From assembly GCA_951406725.2 (NCBI GenBank), contig OX597815.1, forward strand, positions 93,310,001 through 93,374,000: a stretch of 64,000 nt of DNA. The letters are read 5' to 3'. The position numbers were made by a program, and so were the translations under genes. Under the pieces are notes generated by a model. That model searched no databases. It saw only the letters and a program-made list of their open reading frames with translations, and was not told the DNA's origin. The DNA is from Octopus vulgaris (taxonomy: Eukaryota). This document shows positions 9,591 to 38,026 of the stretch, piece by piece; the first letter of the stretch is position 1, and every line of letters starts with the position of its first letter.

Positions 9591-10018
9591 TGTATTGTCA
9601 ATTTTTTGAGATAATTAGTAGTTTAATATATATACACACATACACATACATACATATACACCGTAATTGTTTTAGATCAATAGATGTAAGTTTGCAATGT
9701 TCAGCATGTGACAGCATCACTGCATCATATGAGGAGGAAAGTGGGAGGAGAAAACATGGAGAAAAGGAAAACAAAAAGAAAGGAAAAAAGAGAATTAAAC
9801 AATGTTCTTTTTTTTTTCTCTCTCTTTTCAAGCATAAAATAACTTCAATATAATCTACAATCTGAAAATTTTCAGTTAATAACTGCTAAAAACAAAAGGT
9901 AGAGTTAAAGAAGTTTATAGCAAACTGAAGGGTTCGAGATATTTTTACATGATAACCCTCCCCAGTTAGAGCACCAAACAGAAATTCAATACAAACAATA
10001 GAAGAAATATGTACTTAC

Positions 10019-10077
10019 CTTCTATATGACAATAATCAGAATTTGGGTTGACTTTTTCTGGATCCATTCCAAAACCA
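10019..10077 (-). CDS. trio: Trio/Kalirin RhoGEF, internal exon (59 nt, phase 2-1)
   Basis: ttttttatttag|T GGT...GAA G|gtaagt. The junction AG+T gives Ser, then GFGMDPEKVNPNSDYCHIE. Phase fits the 32526 donor and the peptide aligns with the recalled Trio loop ...KTPHNSSINHIE. Confidence 0.85.
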
Positions 10078-10256
10078 CTAAATAAAAAACGAATGAGTTT
10101 TTCACCATAGTGCAGGAATTTTGCACAGAAAAACATAGCAATAATAAACATGACTTTAATGAGCACATAGACAGCTGATAGTACAAATGAGAGAATGCCT
10201 TTGGTTTGTAAATTCCGGAATGATTTTTTAAATGATTTGTGTGGTCTTGTCGGCAT
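10078..10256 (-). CDS. trio: Candidate 5' extension (alternative first exon) of the 59-nt trio exon encoding a basic plus hydrophobic N-terminus
   Basis: The frame is open from a TAA at 10328-10326 into the exon. ATG at 10256 in CACCATG context. Encodes MPTRPHKSFKKSFRNLQTKGILSFVLSAVYVLIKVMFIIAMFFCAKFLHYGEKLIRFLF. Confidence 0.5.
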
Positions 10257-11489
10257 GGTGCTGGTGGCTTTCACAAATATCTCATGGCTAACAACAAGAA
10301 CAACATAGATAATCCACAGAGAACTTTACAGGTAAATATAGAAATTATTCACTCTTAGCTGTCAGGTAATATAATCCCATAAAAAGTTTTTTATAAACAG
10401 TCTGAAGGTTTCTTTTCTGATGGCCATTTTCTTCCCGTTTTCATGTCATGTAAGTTGTACGAAGTGAAGTTTGCTCATCAGCCAGAATCACCTGTTGTCG
10501 AGCGACAAAACAAACTACAATCCCAATGCACATCATACTTTTCAGCGTAAATGTTGGCCGGCAATCATCTGAGCTGACACACAAAACACTGAGGAGCTAC
10601 ACATTAAAGCTATTATTAACACATATTACATAGTCACTCCAATAAAATGAAGTGAATGTGGTCAAAAACTGGTTGGGGCTTAAAAATGCAAGGAGCTGCT
10701 TGTTGTGAGAGTACGAAAACTAATAGCTGGAGTTGGAGCTGGAGCTAGTAGAGAAGCATGCTTACAGCTCCATAGTTGATATGGTAATATCAACTACTGT
10801 AGCATGTGTTAGTAGCTAGAAGCAGCTGACAGGCGAGTTTCAGTGTAAGTAAAAAACCAAACAAACAGAAAAAGAAAGGAAGTAACGACTAGCCTGCCTT
10901 CAACAGCAACAGTCACTTGTGAGTACTGTACAATATTTCTTTTTCTTTTTTTATTTTATTATTCCTAATCAGTGTTTAAATTAACAATCTTCACTAACTA
11001 GCTACAGTTTTATATCACAAAACACACACACACATGCACAAAATACATTAAAGGAAAGTAATAAAAGCATTTCCCCTATAGTCACCCTGTGATTTCTCTC
11101 ACCCCACCTTCCCAAGAAGAATTATTCAGAAATTACTTTTGTTTTCAACTTTTTACTTTTTCTTTTCCTTTTTTTTTTTTTTTTTTTTACACAAGTTAAT
11201 TAAGTAGATTATGTCAACCAGTTAAAACAATTATTACTTTCTGTAATATATTCATAAAATCCAAAAAATAGACCTGCGTGTGTGTGTGTGTGTATGTTGA
11301 GAGATATGTGTTTATGTACATCTGATACTGTGTCAGACAAGATAGGACCATCAACTAGATGTTCAAATTATAATCTCAAATATATTTATTTGAAATCATA
11401 GAAAAATTACTTGATTGTGTGTGTGTGCATGTGTGTACACCTTATTGTTACTTTTGATACTTTTACCCTTATTATCATTATTATTACTG

Positions 11490-17609: not shown

Positions 17610-17926
17610 ATGCGTATGTTTGTGTATCTATGTCCCCCCCACCCATCGCTTAACAATCGATGCTGGTGTGTTTACGTCCCTGTAACTTAGCAGTTTGGCA
17701 AAAGAGACCGACAGAATATGTACTAGGCTTACAAAGAATAAGTCCTGGTGTTGATTTGCTCAACTAAAGGCGGTGCTCCAGCATGGTTCCATTGCGATAG
17801 GTAGAATTGCGATGATATATCCAACCATAGAAATCATACCAAAGCTGAGATGGAGCATGATGCAGCCCTGCAGCTTGCTGGATCCCATCAAACTGCCCAG
17901 TCAAATGACTGAAACAAGTAAAAGAG
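17416..17926 (+). mobile_element. tRNA-derived CORE-like SINE (family A) with internal (TG)n and a templated insertion
   Basis: A-box-like tggctgtgtggtaag, B-box-like gggttcagtccc, CORE-like ccttgggcaagtg. Near-identical to 59106-59893. Confidence 0.85.
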
Positions 17927-17957
17927 TATATACATATGCAGATACATATATATGCGC

Positions 17958-18008
<51 letters not shown>

Positions 18009-18080
18009 CACATATATACACACACACACATATATATATATATACATGCACACACATATACATACACATACACACACACA

Positions 18081-18880
18081 CAGAGGGTGAAGTGAATACA
18101 GTGTCACCTAAATTACGCAAAAATTGAAAACAATACTGACATCCTATTTTAAAAGATATAATTATGAAAACTGCATAAAAGTATCTTGAAATACTAGAGA
18201 GCAAATCGCCATTGGCTTGAACCATAGCCTCCAGACGACTTCGGAATCTCCTGCAACTCTTCTGGACAGTCTCCTTGTTTAAGTTGGTGAATACTGCCAT
18301 AATCCTTGCCTAAGGAGTTTTGGTGGTCTCTCCCTTAACTGTGCCCCACACACAATAATCAAAGGGGTTGCAGTCTGGGGAGTTAAGTGGCCAGATGTTA
18401 GGGGTAATGTGGTTTCAGAAATTGTTTGACAGCCATGACTGTTTTCTGCTTGTGTGGCATGGTGCAGAGTCCTGTTGCCAGACACAGGGTCTTCCAGAAG
18501 CCACCCTCTGGACCTAGGACAGCACTACCTCCTCCAGGCACTTGATGTAGGGCTCCGTGTTGCATCTGAGGCTGTGTGGGAAGAGGAATGGAGGCATAAT
18601 GTCACCATCATTAGTGATCACTCCAAAAATCATGATGTTGACTGGATGTTTGATCTTTACCAACCTTGGTACATGCTTTGGAGACACAGCAAGCCAATGG
18701 TTGTTCTGTGTATTCACCATCTCTTCGTACTGAAGCTTCCAGTGTGAATGCCAAGCAGTACAGCATGCCATTTCCAAATTTTCTCACAGATGGTGCTCAA
18801 GTAACCCTACTATACTGTGTCATTGACAAAATCAAAAACAATGTCCATGCACGAAATTATCTCAAAAGATACATCTATAA
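18081..18880 (-). mobile_element. Degenerate Tc1/mariner-superfamily element, maT/DD37D-like transposase C-terminal half
   Basis: Fragments KHPVNIMIFGVITNDG, WQQDSAPCH, WPLNSPDCNPFDY and CRRFRSRLEAMVQANG across frames. Boundaries approximate. Confidence 0.8.
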
Positions 18881-21049: not shown

Positions 21050-21310
21050 TTCAGATAGAATTTGTAGTTTGTCTGCCTTCCTACTTATTAAGACTTTGGC
21101 TTTTGTTAAATTGACTTTAAGGCCCCTCGAATCTAGACCTTGCTTCCACACCTGAAACTTCCCTAGTTTAGATAGTGACTCAGCTATTAGAGTAAGGTCA
21201 TCAGCATAGAGAAGCTCCCAGGTGTATCCTGTCTTGAATTCCTCTGTAATTTCCTGGAGGACTATGATGAATAAGAGGGGGCTGAGTACTGATCCTTGGT
21301 GGACCTGGGG
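21050..21310 (-). mobile_element. RTE-clade LINE reverse-transcriptase fragment
   Basis: VHQGSVLSPLLFIIVL...WELLYADDLTLIAES...GLKVNLTKAKVL (RT motifs QGSxLSP and YADD). Confidence 0.9.
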
Positions 21311-23539
21311 AGCATAGGCCGAGATAATGGTTGCTAACCCATGTTGCAGCACTAAGTGGGTAGGTGTCTGTGTTTATGCCCTCCATCACTGCTTGACAAC
21401 TGATGTTGGTGTGTTTATGAACCTGTAACTTTGTCATTCGGCAAAAGAGACTGATACAATAAGCACCAGGCTTAAAGAATAAGTACTGGGATCAATTCGT
21501 TTGACTTAAAATTGAAGGTGGTGCCCCAGCATGGCTGCAGTCTAATAATAACTGTAACAAGATAGAAGTATTTTACATTGGGGAAAATAACTTGTTGGTA
21601 TCCATTAAACAGACAGCTAGCAACACTTAACACACACTGAATACATTTTAAAAGATTTTTATTCTAAATATCCCCACCCCTAACTTAGATTTCACAACGT
21701 TTCCCTTAATTCTTTGAATATCACTTAAGACTTTTGTCAGTTACGTAATGAAATATTTTGCAGATGCAATTATTAGAAGTTTATGTATATTAGAACAAAA
21801 GCAGCTTTGTGTTCTCATTGTTGCAGATACCATCATCTGCATCAGCATTATCGTTGTTGTTATTATTATTATTATTATTATTGCTGTTGTTGCTTCATAC
21901 AAAAGTACTCAAATTCCAGCCATTCCATTACAGCCGTGCTCGAGACATAAATTGTATTGTTATTTATAAATCCAAGCAAAAGTAACCAATACAGAGTTTT
22001 ACAACCAGCATTATAATTTATAAAACCAGATTTCACTCTGATTGACATTACAGCAGATTACAGATTCAAGTTTGGAGCCATACAAATACCAACACAATTT
22101 AATTCAACTAATGCGCACACACGCACACAGACTTATGTCAAAATAGCATGGAAAACAAGCATTTGATGGTGGTGGTGATGATGATGATATATCCAACCAT
22201 AGAAATCATACCAAAGCTGAGATGGAGCATGATGCAGCCCTGCAGCTTGCTGGATCCCATCAAACTGCCTAACCCATGTCCATGTGGAAAAACAAACATA
22301 TCATACACCACTGGATTTTATACTTAGAGAAGACAGGCAGTTGTGGTCTAAATCAGTTCATTTTGGAGTTACAACCCTCCTAAAAGGAATGAAGAACATG
22401 CCATGCTCATATATTTCTGGCATGGTTTCTACAATTAGATGCTCTTCCTAACACCAACCATTTTACAGAATGTACTGAGTGATTTTATCCTAGACACTAG
22501 CGCATCGTTGTGTCCTCAGTACAACTAAAGAACCTTCTCTGCCTTCTGATATCTCTGTTCATTTACCAACAAGTTATAAGTTATACTTGGTACATTTCAT
22601 AATGGCACCTACACCACAGAGGCTGTTATGTCTCTGACAAGACTAAAGAATCCTCTCTTTTCAAAACATTGCTTATGTTTGTTCAAGGTTTCACAACCAA
22701 GAGATAGACAGAGGAGGGTGTAATGAAAGAGAAAGAACCAAAATGAACAAATGATAGAGTAGAAATTATGATAATTATGATGGAGAAAATAGAAGGACAT
22801 AGAAGGTAGCAGGAGGGAAAAATAGTCTGTTATGGACAGCTATGTATTGGTTGTTGGTAACAAGATTGAAAAGGATGTCAAGTGACATGATAGGGACGCT
22901 GAGAGGGATAGAAGGGTGGCAGAGTAATGGAAGAGGAAGTAATTGAAATGTGTGATGTACATCAACAATGGAGTAATGTGAGAGAAAACATGATGGATAG
23001 CAATAAAAGATGGGTGAAGAGAACAGAGTGATGGAGGGCAAAGTCATGGACAGGAGAAAGAGGAGATTATCAATTAAAACAAGACTGATGATGTATTGAA
23101 TATGGACACATTCAATGCATCAGGTTTCATTGTAAGAGAGGGGGAGAGAGAGAGATAAAGTGTGACAGTGGAGTGGTGCCTGAATATGAACAATTCAACA
23201 CCACTCTGTTAGAAAGGCAAGCATACTAGTGATAGGAGAGAAAGGCTGTAATACACGAGACAGTAATGAAAGTATAGACAGTAGATGATGACTTAACAGA
23301 ACATGAGAAGGGGGTCAAATGTTGATGTACATTCCAACCACCATAATTTTTAAGTCTGCTTTGTCATGCTTCTATAAGTGGATAGATCCTTTTTGCCACC
23401 ATACTTGCTAGTCGTTTGTTTTGTGAAATTTAGTACTTTGAAATAAGTCTTCACAACTGCATTCCATGTCTTCTGTAGATGCCATACTTAGCAAGCACTC
23501 AGCAATTTTTTACACAATTGGCTACAAACCAGTGTAGTT

Positions 23540-26940: not shown

Positions 26941-27684
26941 CTAAAACAAGACTCATGCATTACACCAAAACATGTTTAAGAGGTGAAGATATGTTGTTAT
27001 ATTGCCAAAATAAATACAAGCATTTAATATAAATAAAATAATAATAATAATATAAAAAGCATAGCAATATTAAAAATAAAAGGTGTTAATATAGATCAAT
27101 AATAGTTCAACCCTATATTCAACTTGTAAATAAGTAGAATTATTTTCAATATTGTTAGAAAGTTTCATTTTACACACAAGCAATTAACTACTAGCAAGCA
27201 ATACAGACAGAAAGTTAATTAGAAAATTGTTTAACATACAAAGATAAATATTATATAAAGCTTTGTTTCAAGGAAAGATTACAAATAAAGCCTCAGAACT
27301 ATTCCACATTATAACTTTAGTCATTCTCAATTAGACCACTATGAGACAAATATAAAAGTTCATTTCGAAAATTGATCAACATCAATTTTCTCTATAAATT
27401 GTTTTGAAAAAAGATTTATAAAGTTGCTTTAAACTAAATAAAATAAATAAATAAAAACTAGCAAATAGGTTTTCAATTCAGGGTAGGTGTTATAAATATA
27501 TATATAAAGCATTCACACATACATATCATTTATATCTATTTTCTCATGCTTCTATAGATTATTTGTGGGTCAATTACTTTTACAGCTGAGTGATGTCCTT
27601 ACTGATGACTACTCAACTATAAAATAGAAAGTGGATCCTGTAGTTGGTGCCCTTTTCCCTATCTCCATCAGATGATCAGATTTA

Positions 27685-28845
27685 TGATGGGTGTTCATTA
27701 AAGATTTCCCCTGATACACTTCCAGTTATTGCAGGAAACGGAACTTGTGTAGTTATAAGTGTACTTGTCTCTACATGTCACATTGTAAATTGCAGATCAG
27801 TGATCAGGTTCTTATACTTGAAAGGGCATACACCAAAAGAGACTTTTGATGAGATGAAAGAAACTTTTGGTGATGATGCACCATCATACGATGTAGTCAA
27901 GCACTGACATTGCCAGTTCAAATGTGGTTGGACTTAGGTGAAAACTGCTCCTATTCTTGGACAACCACATTCCACCATTGATGACGACACCATCCATAAA
28001 GTAGAAGCTGCAACTTTGGAGGATCGCTGCATAACTATTCTGCAACTAGCCCAAGAAGCAAAGATAAGTGTAGGGTCTGTGGAAAAAAATCATTCACAAC
28101 CATTTGCACATGTGGAAGCTGTGTGAATGATAGATTCCCTAGATGCTCACACCTTTTCAGAAGCAGGAACACGTCAATTACTCCCAGGCTCTTTTGGCAA
28201 TGTGCCAAGAAAATGAGGAGGACTTTTTTGGCATGGGTCCATCACTATGATCCTAAGACTAAAATCCACTTGAATATAAGCATAACTCCAAAGAAGGCTC
28301 ATGTCCAACTCTCAGCAGGCAAGGTGATGCTGTCTTTTGGGATCAGCATGGAGCAGTGAGGATGGATTTTCTGGCAAAGGACACCACAATTAACAGGGCA
28401 TATTATGCTTCTCTGCTGCAGAGATTGTGGGATGCCATCAAAGCAGAGAGGTGTGGCATGCTGAGCAAAGGAGTCTGCCTCTTCCAAGACAACGCCCCAG
28501 TTCACAATGCGCATGTTGCCCAGATGAAAGCAGACTCCTGCAGCTATGAAATCCTTCGTCCTGACCTTGCATCATCTGACTTCCACCTCTTTCCAACCAT
28601 GAAGTCTTTTTTGAAGAGGAAGCACTTTTCGGATGAGGATGAACTTATTTCTAAGGTGATGTCTTGGCTCCAGGCCCAACCTACCAATTTCTACAGACGA
28701 GGTCTTCACAGCTGCATAAAGTGATGGGAGAAGTGTGGCACCATTGTTGGTGGCTATGTAGAGAAGGACAAATAATTATGCCAAGCTTTGTTTATCCCAG
28801 TCCTTGGGAAGTGGATCAGGGGATATCTTTAATGAACATCTCTCA
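27685..28845 (+). mobile_element. Near full-length degenerate mariner transposon (irritans-like) with TIRs
   Basis: About 39-bp imperfect TIRs (tgatgggtgttcattaaagatttcccctgatacacttcc / ggaagtggatcaggggatatctttaatgaacatctctca), TA at the left flank. Broken transposase with RSVIRFLYLKG, WVHHYDPKTK, FQDNAPVH, PDLASSDFHLF; several stops and frameshifts. Confidence 0.92.
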
Positions 28846-32525: not shown

Positions 32526-32695
32526 CTTATCCGTTCAAGTAAACTTTCTCCTTCTCTGACCGTACTAATAGCTGCTTCAATAGTTGTCTCCCTTTGATCA
32601 TTGAACTGTGTTACTAAGTGCTCTGCTCCTTCCACTGTATCAGCTATTTCTGAACTTTGCAGTTCTTGTTGCAATTCTTCTAGCCAAGATGTTAA
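32526..32695 (-). CDS. trio: Trio/Kalirin RhoGEF, internal spectrin-repeat exon (170 nt, phase 0-2)
   Basis: ttttag|TTA...ATA AG|gtaagc. Encodes LTSWLEELQQELQSSEIADTVEGAEHLVTQFNDQRETTIEAAISTVREGESLLERI, continuing in phase from the previous exon and matching the recalled Trio LWTWLEELQKELL...VIKEGEDLIQQLR. Not in the ORF track. Confidence 0.93.
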
Positions 32696-37300: not shown

Positions 37301-37834
37301 GTAGCTGTGTACACAGGCATCAGAATATGTAGAACTAAAAAAGGGCACTAATTGAAAATTAAAATAACTTCAACTTTTTTATCATAAAAGTAATACACAC
37401 TCTGTGCGCTTCAATTGTTTTGGGTCTTTTTTTAAATAATCAGTCAGAAAGATTAAGTAAAATAAATTTTTTTGTTATTAAGCTAGCATGATTGCAATAC
37501 AACAAAAGGTTCTTATATAAAAATAAGAAAATGTAGCTTAAATAAGAATGCAGTTATGTATTATAGAATCAAAGGTGATTCCAGGTAGATTGGTAACAAA
37601 TGAGTTAAAGATGTGAATGCTCATTTACCATTAACTCTTCTAATTACATTTGAAGATTATTTTACAACTAGAAATGGTAGTGATTATTTTTTGTTTCCTT
37701 TTTCTTTTGTTATTTCTGTTATTTTTTTCTGAGGAATTAGTGGAGAAGGTTTTTAATAGAAAGAGAATGTTTGTGTGTGAGAGAGGAGGAAACTTGACTA
37801 ATTGATATGTAATATGCAAAACGATCATATTTAC

Positions 37835-38026
37835 CTCATGAACATGTGTATAAAATGAGACAGTCATATCAAGTATAGCCCTTCTCCTTTCTAGAGCAGT
37901 GATGAAATCATGCATGCGCTCTTCAAGTTCCTGGGCTTCACTGTATATTTCCTTGGGATCACATTCACCAGTTTGAGCAAGTTCATCAGCAGCAGCTAGT
38001 AGTTTATCAGCATTTGTTATTGTGTT
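37835..38026 (-). CDS. trio: Trio/Kalirin RhoGEF, internal spectrin-repeat exon (192 nt, phase 0-0)
   Basis: tttcag|AAC...GAG|gtaaat. Encodes NTITNADKLLAAADELAQTGECDPKEIYSEAQELEERMHDFITALERRRAILDMTVSFYTHVHE, closely matching the Trio/Kalirin segment recalled as NTYTNADKLLEAAEQLAQTGECDPEEIY...LLDMSVSFHTHVKE. Confidence 0.95.

What the first reader, a model, noticed from the sequence alone, without database searches (positions are those of the whole stretch)
10019..10325. Dual-use trio exon: an in-frame upstream extension encodes a putative membrane-anchoring N-terminus
Seen: upstream of the 59-nt exon acceptor the same frame stays open for over 80 codons in AT-rich intron, with an ATG in CACCATG context at 10256. 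It encodes a basic patch (HKSFKKSFRNLQTK) and then ~29 mostly hydrophobic residues with a central Lys (GILSFVLSAVYVLIKVMFIIAMFFCAKFL). Flanking 10330-10930 is unique, non-repeat sequence. Known: Kalirin has internal-promoter delta isoforms lacking Sec14 and early spectrin repeats, and Trio8/Solo uses a hydrophobic C-terminal anchor. Inference: an internal promoter yields a truncated Trio that replaces Sec14 with an N-terminal transmembrane or hairpin anchor; I know of no description of this in molluscs.
Basis: partly seen in the sequence, partly recalled or inferred. Interest (0 to 1): 0.75.

Follow-up and report, generated by a model that had tools for sequence, protein, structure and literature searches.

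The report
Mollusc Trio isoform with membrane helix
An octopus-like animal makes a spliced, shortened RNA of Trio, a switch for the actin skeleton, in which the usual lipid-binding front end is replaced by a hydrophobic helix also found in clams and mussels, which likely fixes the protein to a membrane.

Summary
Confirmed, and stronger than first read. The 59-nt exon (10077-10019, minus strand) is the loop in spectrin repeat 5 of Trio. Contigs of runs guessed to be RNA carry the upstream extension spliced to the next Trio exon. In one run it is the only form laid, in one about half, in one about a tenth. The 59-codon extension is kept without indels in another cephalopod-type sequence (34 of 40 helix residues identical). 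All 3 substitutions in a closer relative are synonymous. Four bivalve-type proteins carry a hydrophobic helix in front of the same exon, with charges at the same distances from the junction (-26, -14, -8) on one helix face. The isoform loses Sec14 and SR1-5AB and keeps SR6-9 and the GEFs. A single-pass anchor is unlikely, because both flanks should stay cytosolic; a helix lying in one leaflet, or a hairpin, fits better. Membrane binding, translation and the transcript's 5' end are not shown. It resembles delta-Kalirin, which is diffuse and is not described with an anchor. Five literature searches found no description; two automatic bivalve gene models already contain it. The scan noted a different internal Trio start (GEF2 type, urchin) before.

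The parts
10019..10077 (-). Shared 59-nt Trio exon (B/C loop and start of helix C of spectrin repeat 5); used by both transcript forms
   Evidence: tblastn with bivalve Trio P0012, about aa 738-758; both junctions in RNA-type contigs
10078..10256 (-). Coding 5' extension, 59 codons plus 2 nt, in frame with the shared exon; intron in the full-length form
   Evidence: conserved in P0001, P0171, P0172
10254..10256 (-). Inferred start codon (CACCATGC); the only in-frame Met before the helix; conservation with P0001 starts here
10200..10256 (-). Basic N-terminal segment, residues 1-19 (seen in the cephalopod-type sequences only; 11 of 19 identical to P0001)
10080..10199 (-). Hydrophobic helix, residues 20-59, with polar residues confined to a 120-degree face; predicted monotopic membrane anchor
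10390..10395 (-). TATA-like hexamer (candidate proximal promoter, untested)
11009..11014 (-). Second TATA-like hexamer, near the end of the X2 contig (untested)
10078..10079 (-). Acceptor AG used by full-length Trio; part of a Ser codon in the short form
10017..10018 (-). Donor GT shared by both forms; about 39.4 kb intron to the next exon at G000:C2:93280640
32526..32695 (-). Upstream Trio exon (SR5 helices A-B), absent from the short form
37832..38026 (-). Further upstream Trio exon (ends approximate)

Best explanation
The 59-nt Trio exon is also the end of a longer exon that is spliced to the rest of the gene, likely from an internal promoter, and would encode a Trio lacking Sec14 and SR1-5AB whose new N-terminal hydrophobic helix is predicted to sit in the cytosolic leaflet of a membrane. 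Shown: exon position, both splice forms, conservation of the frame and of the charge pattern. Inferred: the transcript starts in the 22-kb intron; translation starts at 10256; the protein keeps SR5C, SR6-9, GEF1 and probably GEF2. The 40-residue helix binds monotopically, lying in-plane with Lys/Arg reaching to the headgroups or as a tight hairpin, so both flanks stay cytosolic. Promoter choice would then swap weak, reversible Sec14 lipid binding for a fixed anchor, while the SR6-9 autoinhibition of GEF1 known from human Trio is kept.
For: Run X1: one 1253-nt contig covers 10017-10930 and 11044-11146 colinearly and continues into the next exon; no upstream-exon junction was laid in that run. 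X2: full-length form depth 19 and extension 22.4 merge into a shared contig of depth 47. X10: 43.8 versus 2-6. No RNA-type contig lies on the downstream intron 9900-9993, where run X20 (read as DNA) continues. X5 and X12 also cover the extension and stop at 10050, the branch point. 3 of 3 substitutions in organism E are synonymous (p 0.01-0.04). P0001: no indel over 79 aa, 34 of 40 helix residues identical. Bivalve models P0031 (Mactra) and P0074 (Potamilus; the same locus tag also has the full-length form P0118), and unnamed ORFs P0174 and P0175, place a hydrophobic helix before the same exon; P0174 and P0175 read on past the exon into non-Trio, intron-like sequence, as the window frame does. 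The octopus helix matches 3 of 4 charged positions invariant in bivalves (shuffle p 0.0009); anchored BLOSUM p 0.002-0.06 by window length. Polar residues lie within 120-140 degrees in 7 of 7 sequences. AlphaFold2 gives one unbroken helix outside the spectrin bundle (range 76-240 in most rows).
Against: No 5' end: contigs cannot show a start, and X1 coverage runs past 11300. The leader holds 16 upstream ATGs, about what base composition would give (rough estimate). The runs are only guessed to be RNA, tissue is not on record, and they were chosen for holding this stretch. A bivalve-only HMM does not rank the octopus frame in the top 12 of 2692 segments, and shuffles of the hydrophobic part reach its score in 101 of 5000, so cross-class homology rests on position and charge pattern. 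The hydrophobic moment of the octopus helix is only borderline (p 0.055). No gastropod protein retrieved has the helix before this exon (member lists were partial). No protein or localisation data.
Confidence: 0.62

Rival explanations
1. The isoform is real, but the helix is a true membrane-spanning signal-anchor (one pass with the N-terminus outside, as on the mitochondrial outer membrane or ER, or two tight passes).
For: Hydropathy up to 2.56 over 19 residues. An approximate insertion score is favourable in all six sequences scored (scale values recalled, not a real predictor). P0174 has only about 10 residues before the helix.
Against: The octopus N-flank has six Lys/Arg and no acid, and bivalve forms have 270-430 residues before the helix. 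By the positive-inside rule (established knowledge) one pass would put the GEF domains in a lumen. No conserved Pro/Gly turn; AlphaFold2 gives a continuous helix.
Confidence: 0.17
2. The isoform is real, but the helix binds protein rather than lipid: it oligomerises, binds a partner or covers the orphan helix C of SR5.
For: It replaces helices A-B of SR5, leaving helix C unpaired. Long helices with one polar stripe occur in bundles.
Against: About two thirds of the circumference is apolar, unlike the spectrin helices it replaces. It shows no similarity to them. The model does not place it in the spectrin bundle (from a 9-sequence alignment).
Confidence: 0.13
3. The RNA is a splicing intermediate or a poorly translated intragenic transcript, and the hydrophobic frame is a by-product of T-rich intron sequence.
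For: T-rich acceptor regions translate as hydrophobic strings (the read-through after the donor does too). Many upstream ATGs; 5' end undefined.
Against: It is the only form laid in X1 and about half in X2. Substitutions are synonymous only. The frame is kept without indels in cephalopod-type sequences, while the read-through after the donor diverges. The same helix lies before the same exon in four bivalve-type proteins.
Confidence: 0.08

Closest known systems
Delta-Kalirin (delta-Kal7; intragenic delta TSS of KALRN)
   Same: Intragenic start in a Trio-family gene that removes Sec14 and the first four spectrin repeats and keeps the GEF (PMC11630257 and PMC4004595, passages read).
   Different: Delta-Kal7 is diffuse in soma and shaft (PMC4004595); the passages read describe no added anchor. 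The mollusc form starts half a repeat later, inside SR5, and adds a 40-residue hydrophobic helix.
Kalirin Ex1C front peptide (cKal7); MCF2L isoforms 4 and 9
   Same: An alternative first exon supplies a positively charged amphipathic helix that binds membranes and targets the Golgi region (PMC9823006, passages read).
   Different: There the peptide precedes and works with an intact Sec14 domain. Here the helix replaces Sec14 and is mostly apolar.
Solo/Trio8 (Trio C)
   Same: Membrane-associated short Trio isoform acting at early endosomes (PMC4536496 and PMC3547891, passages; the primary paper was not held).
   Different: Keeps Sec14 and the spectrin repeats; its hydrophobic anchor is C-terminal (recalled, not read here).
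Small ankyrin-1 (ank1.5)
   Same: An alternative first exon inside a large cytoskeletal gene gives a short isoform with an N-terminal hydrophobic membrane anchor (PMC2172649, passages read).
   Different: Unrelated protein with a transmembrane domain, and it loses most of the protein. Here the enzyme domains are retained and the first exon overlaps an internal exon.

Membership tests
Trio/Kalirin RhoGEF gene | Sec14, spectrin repeats, DH-PH 1 in order on one strand | tested here: met
   tblastn of mollusc Trio proteins maps exons in order from C2:93466402 to 93230480
Trio/Kalirin RhoGEF gene | Second DH domain downstream | tested here: met
   PF00621 hit at C2:93114939-93115067, minus strand, E 5e-5; its exons were not mapped further
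Delta-type (Sec14-less) isoform as in delta-Kalirin | Transcript enters the gene in SR5 without the upstream exons and splices on | tested here: met
   X1 contig joins about 1.1 kb of upstream intron sequence, the shared exon and the next exon
Delta-type (Sec14-less) isoform as in delta-Kalirin | Mapped intragenic transcription start | not testable with these tools
   Only assembled contigs were available; they cannot show a start
Delta-type (Sec14-less) isoform as in delta-Kalirin | Same start intron as vertebrate KALRN delta (orthologous promoter) | not tested
   No vertebrate exon map was compared; published start is before SR5, here inside SR5
Delta-type (Sec14-less) isoform as in delta-Kalirin | Retains GEF1 on the same transcript | tested here: inconclusive
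   Bivalve models P0031 and P0074 do. In this species the X2 shared contig runs about 2.7 kb downstream at about the summed depth, but no single record links the extension to GEF1
Front-peptide amphipathic helix (Kalirin Ex1C type) | Helix with a basic polar face | tested here: met
   Polar arc 120-140 degrees in 7 of 7 sequences; moment p 0.004-0.06
Front-peptide amphipathic helix (Kalirin Ex1C type) | Lies directly before an intact Sec14 domain | tested here: not met
   Sec14 exons lie about 90-145 kb upstream and are not part of this form
Front-peptide amphipathic helix (Kalirin Ex1C type) | Binds phosphoinositide liposomes, targets GFP to membranes | not testable with these tools
   Needs bench work
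Single-pass signal-anchor | About 20 apolar residues with flanking charge that leaves the enzyme cytosolic | tested here: inconclusive
   Hydropathy is sufficient, but charge bias and long bivalve N-termini point the wrong way; no topology predictor was available

The most novel reading that the evidence does not exclude
Molluscs have kept, since bivalves and cephalopods split, an internal Trio promoter whose first exon overlaps a micro-exon and encodes an unrecognised class of monotopic membrane helix (signature K/R-x11-K/R-x5-D/E, ending 8 residues before the junction). It turns Trio into a permanently membrane-bound, still autoinhibited Rac/Rho activator that is the main Trio form in some tissues and may target a specific organelle, such as lipid droplets, ER or Golgi.
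Probability: 0.35. Interest if true: 0.68.

Novelty: new variant of a known kind. Interest (0 to 1): 0.52.

Why it matters
Trio and Kalirin control axon guidance, synapses and muscle. How they are placed on membranes is an open question, usually answered with Sec14 and short front peptides. This locus shows a natural swap of the whole Sec14-SR5 module for a 40-residue helix, conserved across two mollusc classes and, by contig depth, ranging from a tenth to all of the Trio RNA seen through this exon. It gives a small, testable targeting peptide. It also warns that gene models and knock-outs of cephalopod trio aimed at 5' exons would miss a major form. The principle (delta isoform, anchor from a first exon) is known, which limits the surprise.

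Tried and rejected
Search for named cephalopod proteins with this N-terminus: 1 cluster among 18 candidates, all unnamed genomic-type ORFs. Only 140-2000 aa were searched, so a full isoform of about 2400 aa could not appear; RefSeq may already list it. No RNA holder is on record as RNA; the label is a guess, backed by the splice junctions. The first read-laying over 20 kb was swamped by repeats. Pfam finds no family for the extension. Foldseek gave no match at E<=0.001; VIA rows cover the spectrin part only, so the fold of the helix is untested. A free HMM comparison bivalve to octopus was weak. The identity counts had an off-by-one slice and were redone. An alternative upstream acceptor near 10826 was considered: it has a pyrimidine tract, but no contig is spliced there. 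A longer ORF with an upstream start was rejected: no in-frame Met between 10325 and 10256, and P0001's upstream frame differs. Duplication of the skipped exon as the origin of the helix was rejected (negative anchored scores). Miller 2015 and Sun 2006 were not held; they are cited through other papers. No supplements were read. Literature searches for this isoform (listings only) found no description; subscription journals are not covered.

Full report
Setting. The window is G000:C2:93310001-93374000 of a 2.8-Gb animal genome. Its GEF1 exon is 98% identical to cuttlefish Trio, so it is a cephalopod; 'octopus' is my inference. Mollusc Trio proteins map exon by exon on the minus strand, from the Sec14 region (C2:93466402) through GEF1-PH (C2:93230480), and a second RhoGEF hit lies at C2:93114939. 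The 59-nt exon at 10077-10019 matches about residues 738-758 of bivalve Trio, between helices B and C of spectrin repeat 5 (repeat numbering recalled from human Trio). It is flanked by introns of about 22.4 and 39.4 kb.

Observation. All stated features are present. The frame is open for 82 codons before the acceptor, 59 from the Met at 10256. Controls: 1 of 37 distinct Trio exons has 59 or more open codons there. Of 4200 acceptor-like site/frame pairs in 264 kb, 237 are open that far, 84 have a Met 55 or more codons up, and 11 also have a hydrophobic window. Both DNA stretches searched are single-copy.

Transcript evidence. No run is on record as RNA; 14 holders are guessed RNA. I laid 5 of these and 1 run read as DNA. 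In X1 a 1253-nt contig covers the leader, the extension and the shared exon, and its loose end is the reverse complement of the next Trio exon; no junction to the upstream exon was laid in that run. In X2 a contig from the upstream exon (depth 19) and the extension contig (22.4) both end at 10050 and feed a shared contig of depth 47 that continues into downstream exons. In X10 the full-length form dominates (43.8 versus 2-6). X5 and X12 cover the extension to 10828 and 10742. The downstream intron has no depth in X1, X2 or X10, while X20 runs through it. Contig depths are rough and the runs were selected for holding this stretch, so the ratios are indicative only. The 5' end is not defined: about 11013 in X2, past 11300 in X1 (second contig of the same depth). 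The leader has 16 ATGs in 10805-10285, all closing before 10256; a start about 30 nt after the TATA-like box at 10395 would leave two.

Conservation. P0001-P0004 (one cluster, unnamed) match the 79 aa without indels: 11 of 19 in the basic part, 34 of 40 in the helix, 17 of 20 in the shared exon. Their sequence before the Met and after the donor does not stay in register. Organism E differs at three sites in the extension, all third-position synonymous (p 0.01, or 0.04 counting transitions only). An HMMER scan of 1.84 billion representatives gave 5 hits: P0171 (one change), P0172, P0174, P0175, and P0173, a repetitive false hit that I dropped. That profile included the shared exon, which carries part of the score. 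Among Trio proteins fetched through other queries, the NCBI models P0031 (Mactra) and P0074 (Potamilus) start with an unrelated N-terminus that ends in a hydrophobic helix joined to the same exon; Potamilus has a full-length model under the same locus tag. Of 131 fetched proteins of 300 aa or more that matched Trio, these 2 have a hydrophobic segment at this junction. P0174 and P0175 are bivalve by likeness of their exon sequence only. Counted back from the junction without gaps, basic residues at -26 and -14 and an acid at -8 are present in every sequence that reaches them. The octopus helix matches 3 of the 4 bivalve-invariant charges (shuffle p 0.0009). A free HMM comparison of the extension alone is weak, so common ancestry is likely but rests on position and pattern.

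Structure and mechanism. AlphaFold2 predicts one helix, residues 6-61 (pLDDT about 90 over 21-50). In the clam construct the helix (14-65) is separate from the spectrin part, which alone aligns to solved repeats. Polar residues in the last 30 positions fall in a 120-140 degree arc in 7 of 7 sequences. The segment is hydrophobic enough to insert. The strongly basic octopus N-flank and the 270-430-residue bivalve N-termini should stay cytosolic, and so must the GEFs. I therefore infer a monotopic anchor, in-plane or hairpin, rather than one pass. The isoform keeps SR6-9, which inhibit GEF1 in human Trio (PMC9467883, abstract and passages), so it would be anchored but still regulated. None of the membrane steps is tested.

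Comparison and novelty. The truncation parallels delta-Kalirin (PMC11630257, section 19 and passages; PMC4004595, passages), which is diffuse in neurons. The anchor parallels the Kalirin Ex1C helix (PMC9823006, passages), Trio8 and ank1.5 (PMC2172649, passages). A review lists vertebrate Trio isoforms as either keeping Sec14 and the repeats or holding only the C-terminal GEF (PMC3547891, passages). Searches gave no description of this form. It is a new variant of a known kind: real with about 0.9 probability, a membrane anchor of some type about 0.8, monotopic about 0.6. The scan's earlier notes hold nothing near this place and one different internal Trio start in another genome.

Noticed in passing
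P0096, P0165, P0167, P0168, P0169 (Timema gene models): Several stick-insect Trio models also begin at this same SR5 position, each with a different non-hydrophobic leader. Probably fragmented assemblies beside a long intron, but possibly an insect internal start.
   Followed up: no
P0022 (Batillaria model): Begins with a 23-residue hydrophobic string joined to the exon after the micro-exon. Likely read-through of a pyrimidine tract, but it could be a gastropod version.
   Followed up: partly
P0031, P0074, P0175 N-termini: Bivalve forms have 270-430 Ser-rich residues before the helix, with a shared short motif (RSSWHG) and basic patches; the cephalopod-type forms and P0174 have fewer than 20.
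   Followed up: no
window 11198-11300 and beyond: A second X1 contig (562 nt) at the same depth as the isoform contig continues upstream of the T-run, so a more distal start or a longer leader may exist.
   Followed up: partly
P0060, P0072, P0100, P0099: Snail and mussel Trio models with internal starts before GEF2 and Cys-containing leaders, like the urchin start noted earlier by the scan.
   Followed up: no
window 17767-18800, 27644-28775 and 21050-21373: Frames that look like decayed mariner-type transposase and LINE reverse-transcriptase fragments inside the Trio intron (recognised from recall).
   Followed up: no
window 10835-10882: Short stretch of the leader shared with other transcripts (37 nt with 6 mismatches, and an A-rich 24-mer), so the leader is not wholly unique at small scale.
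   Followed up: no
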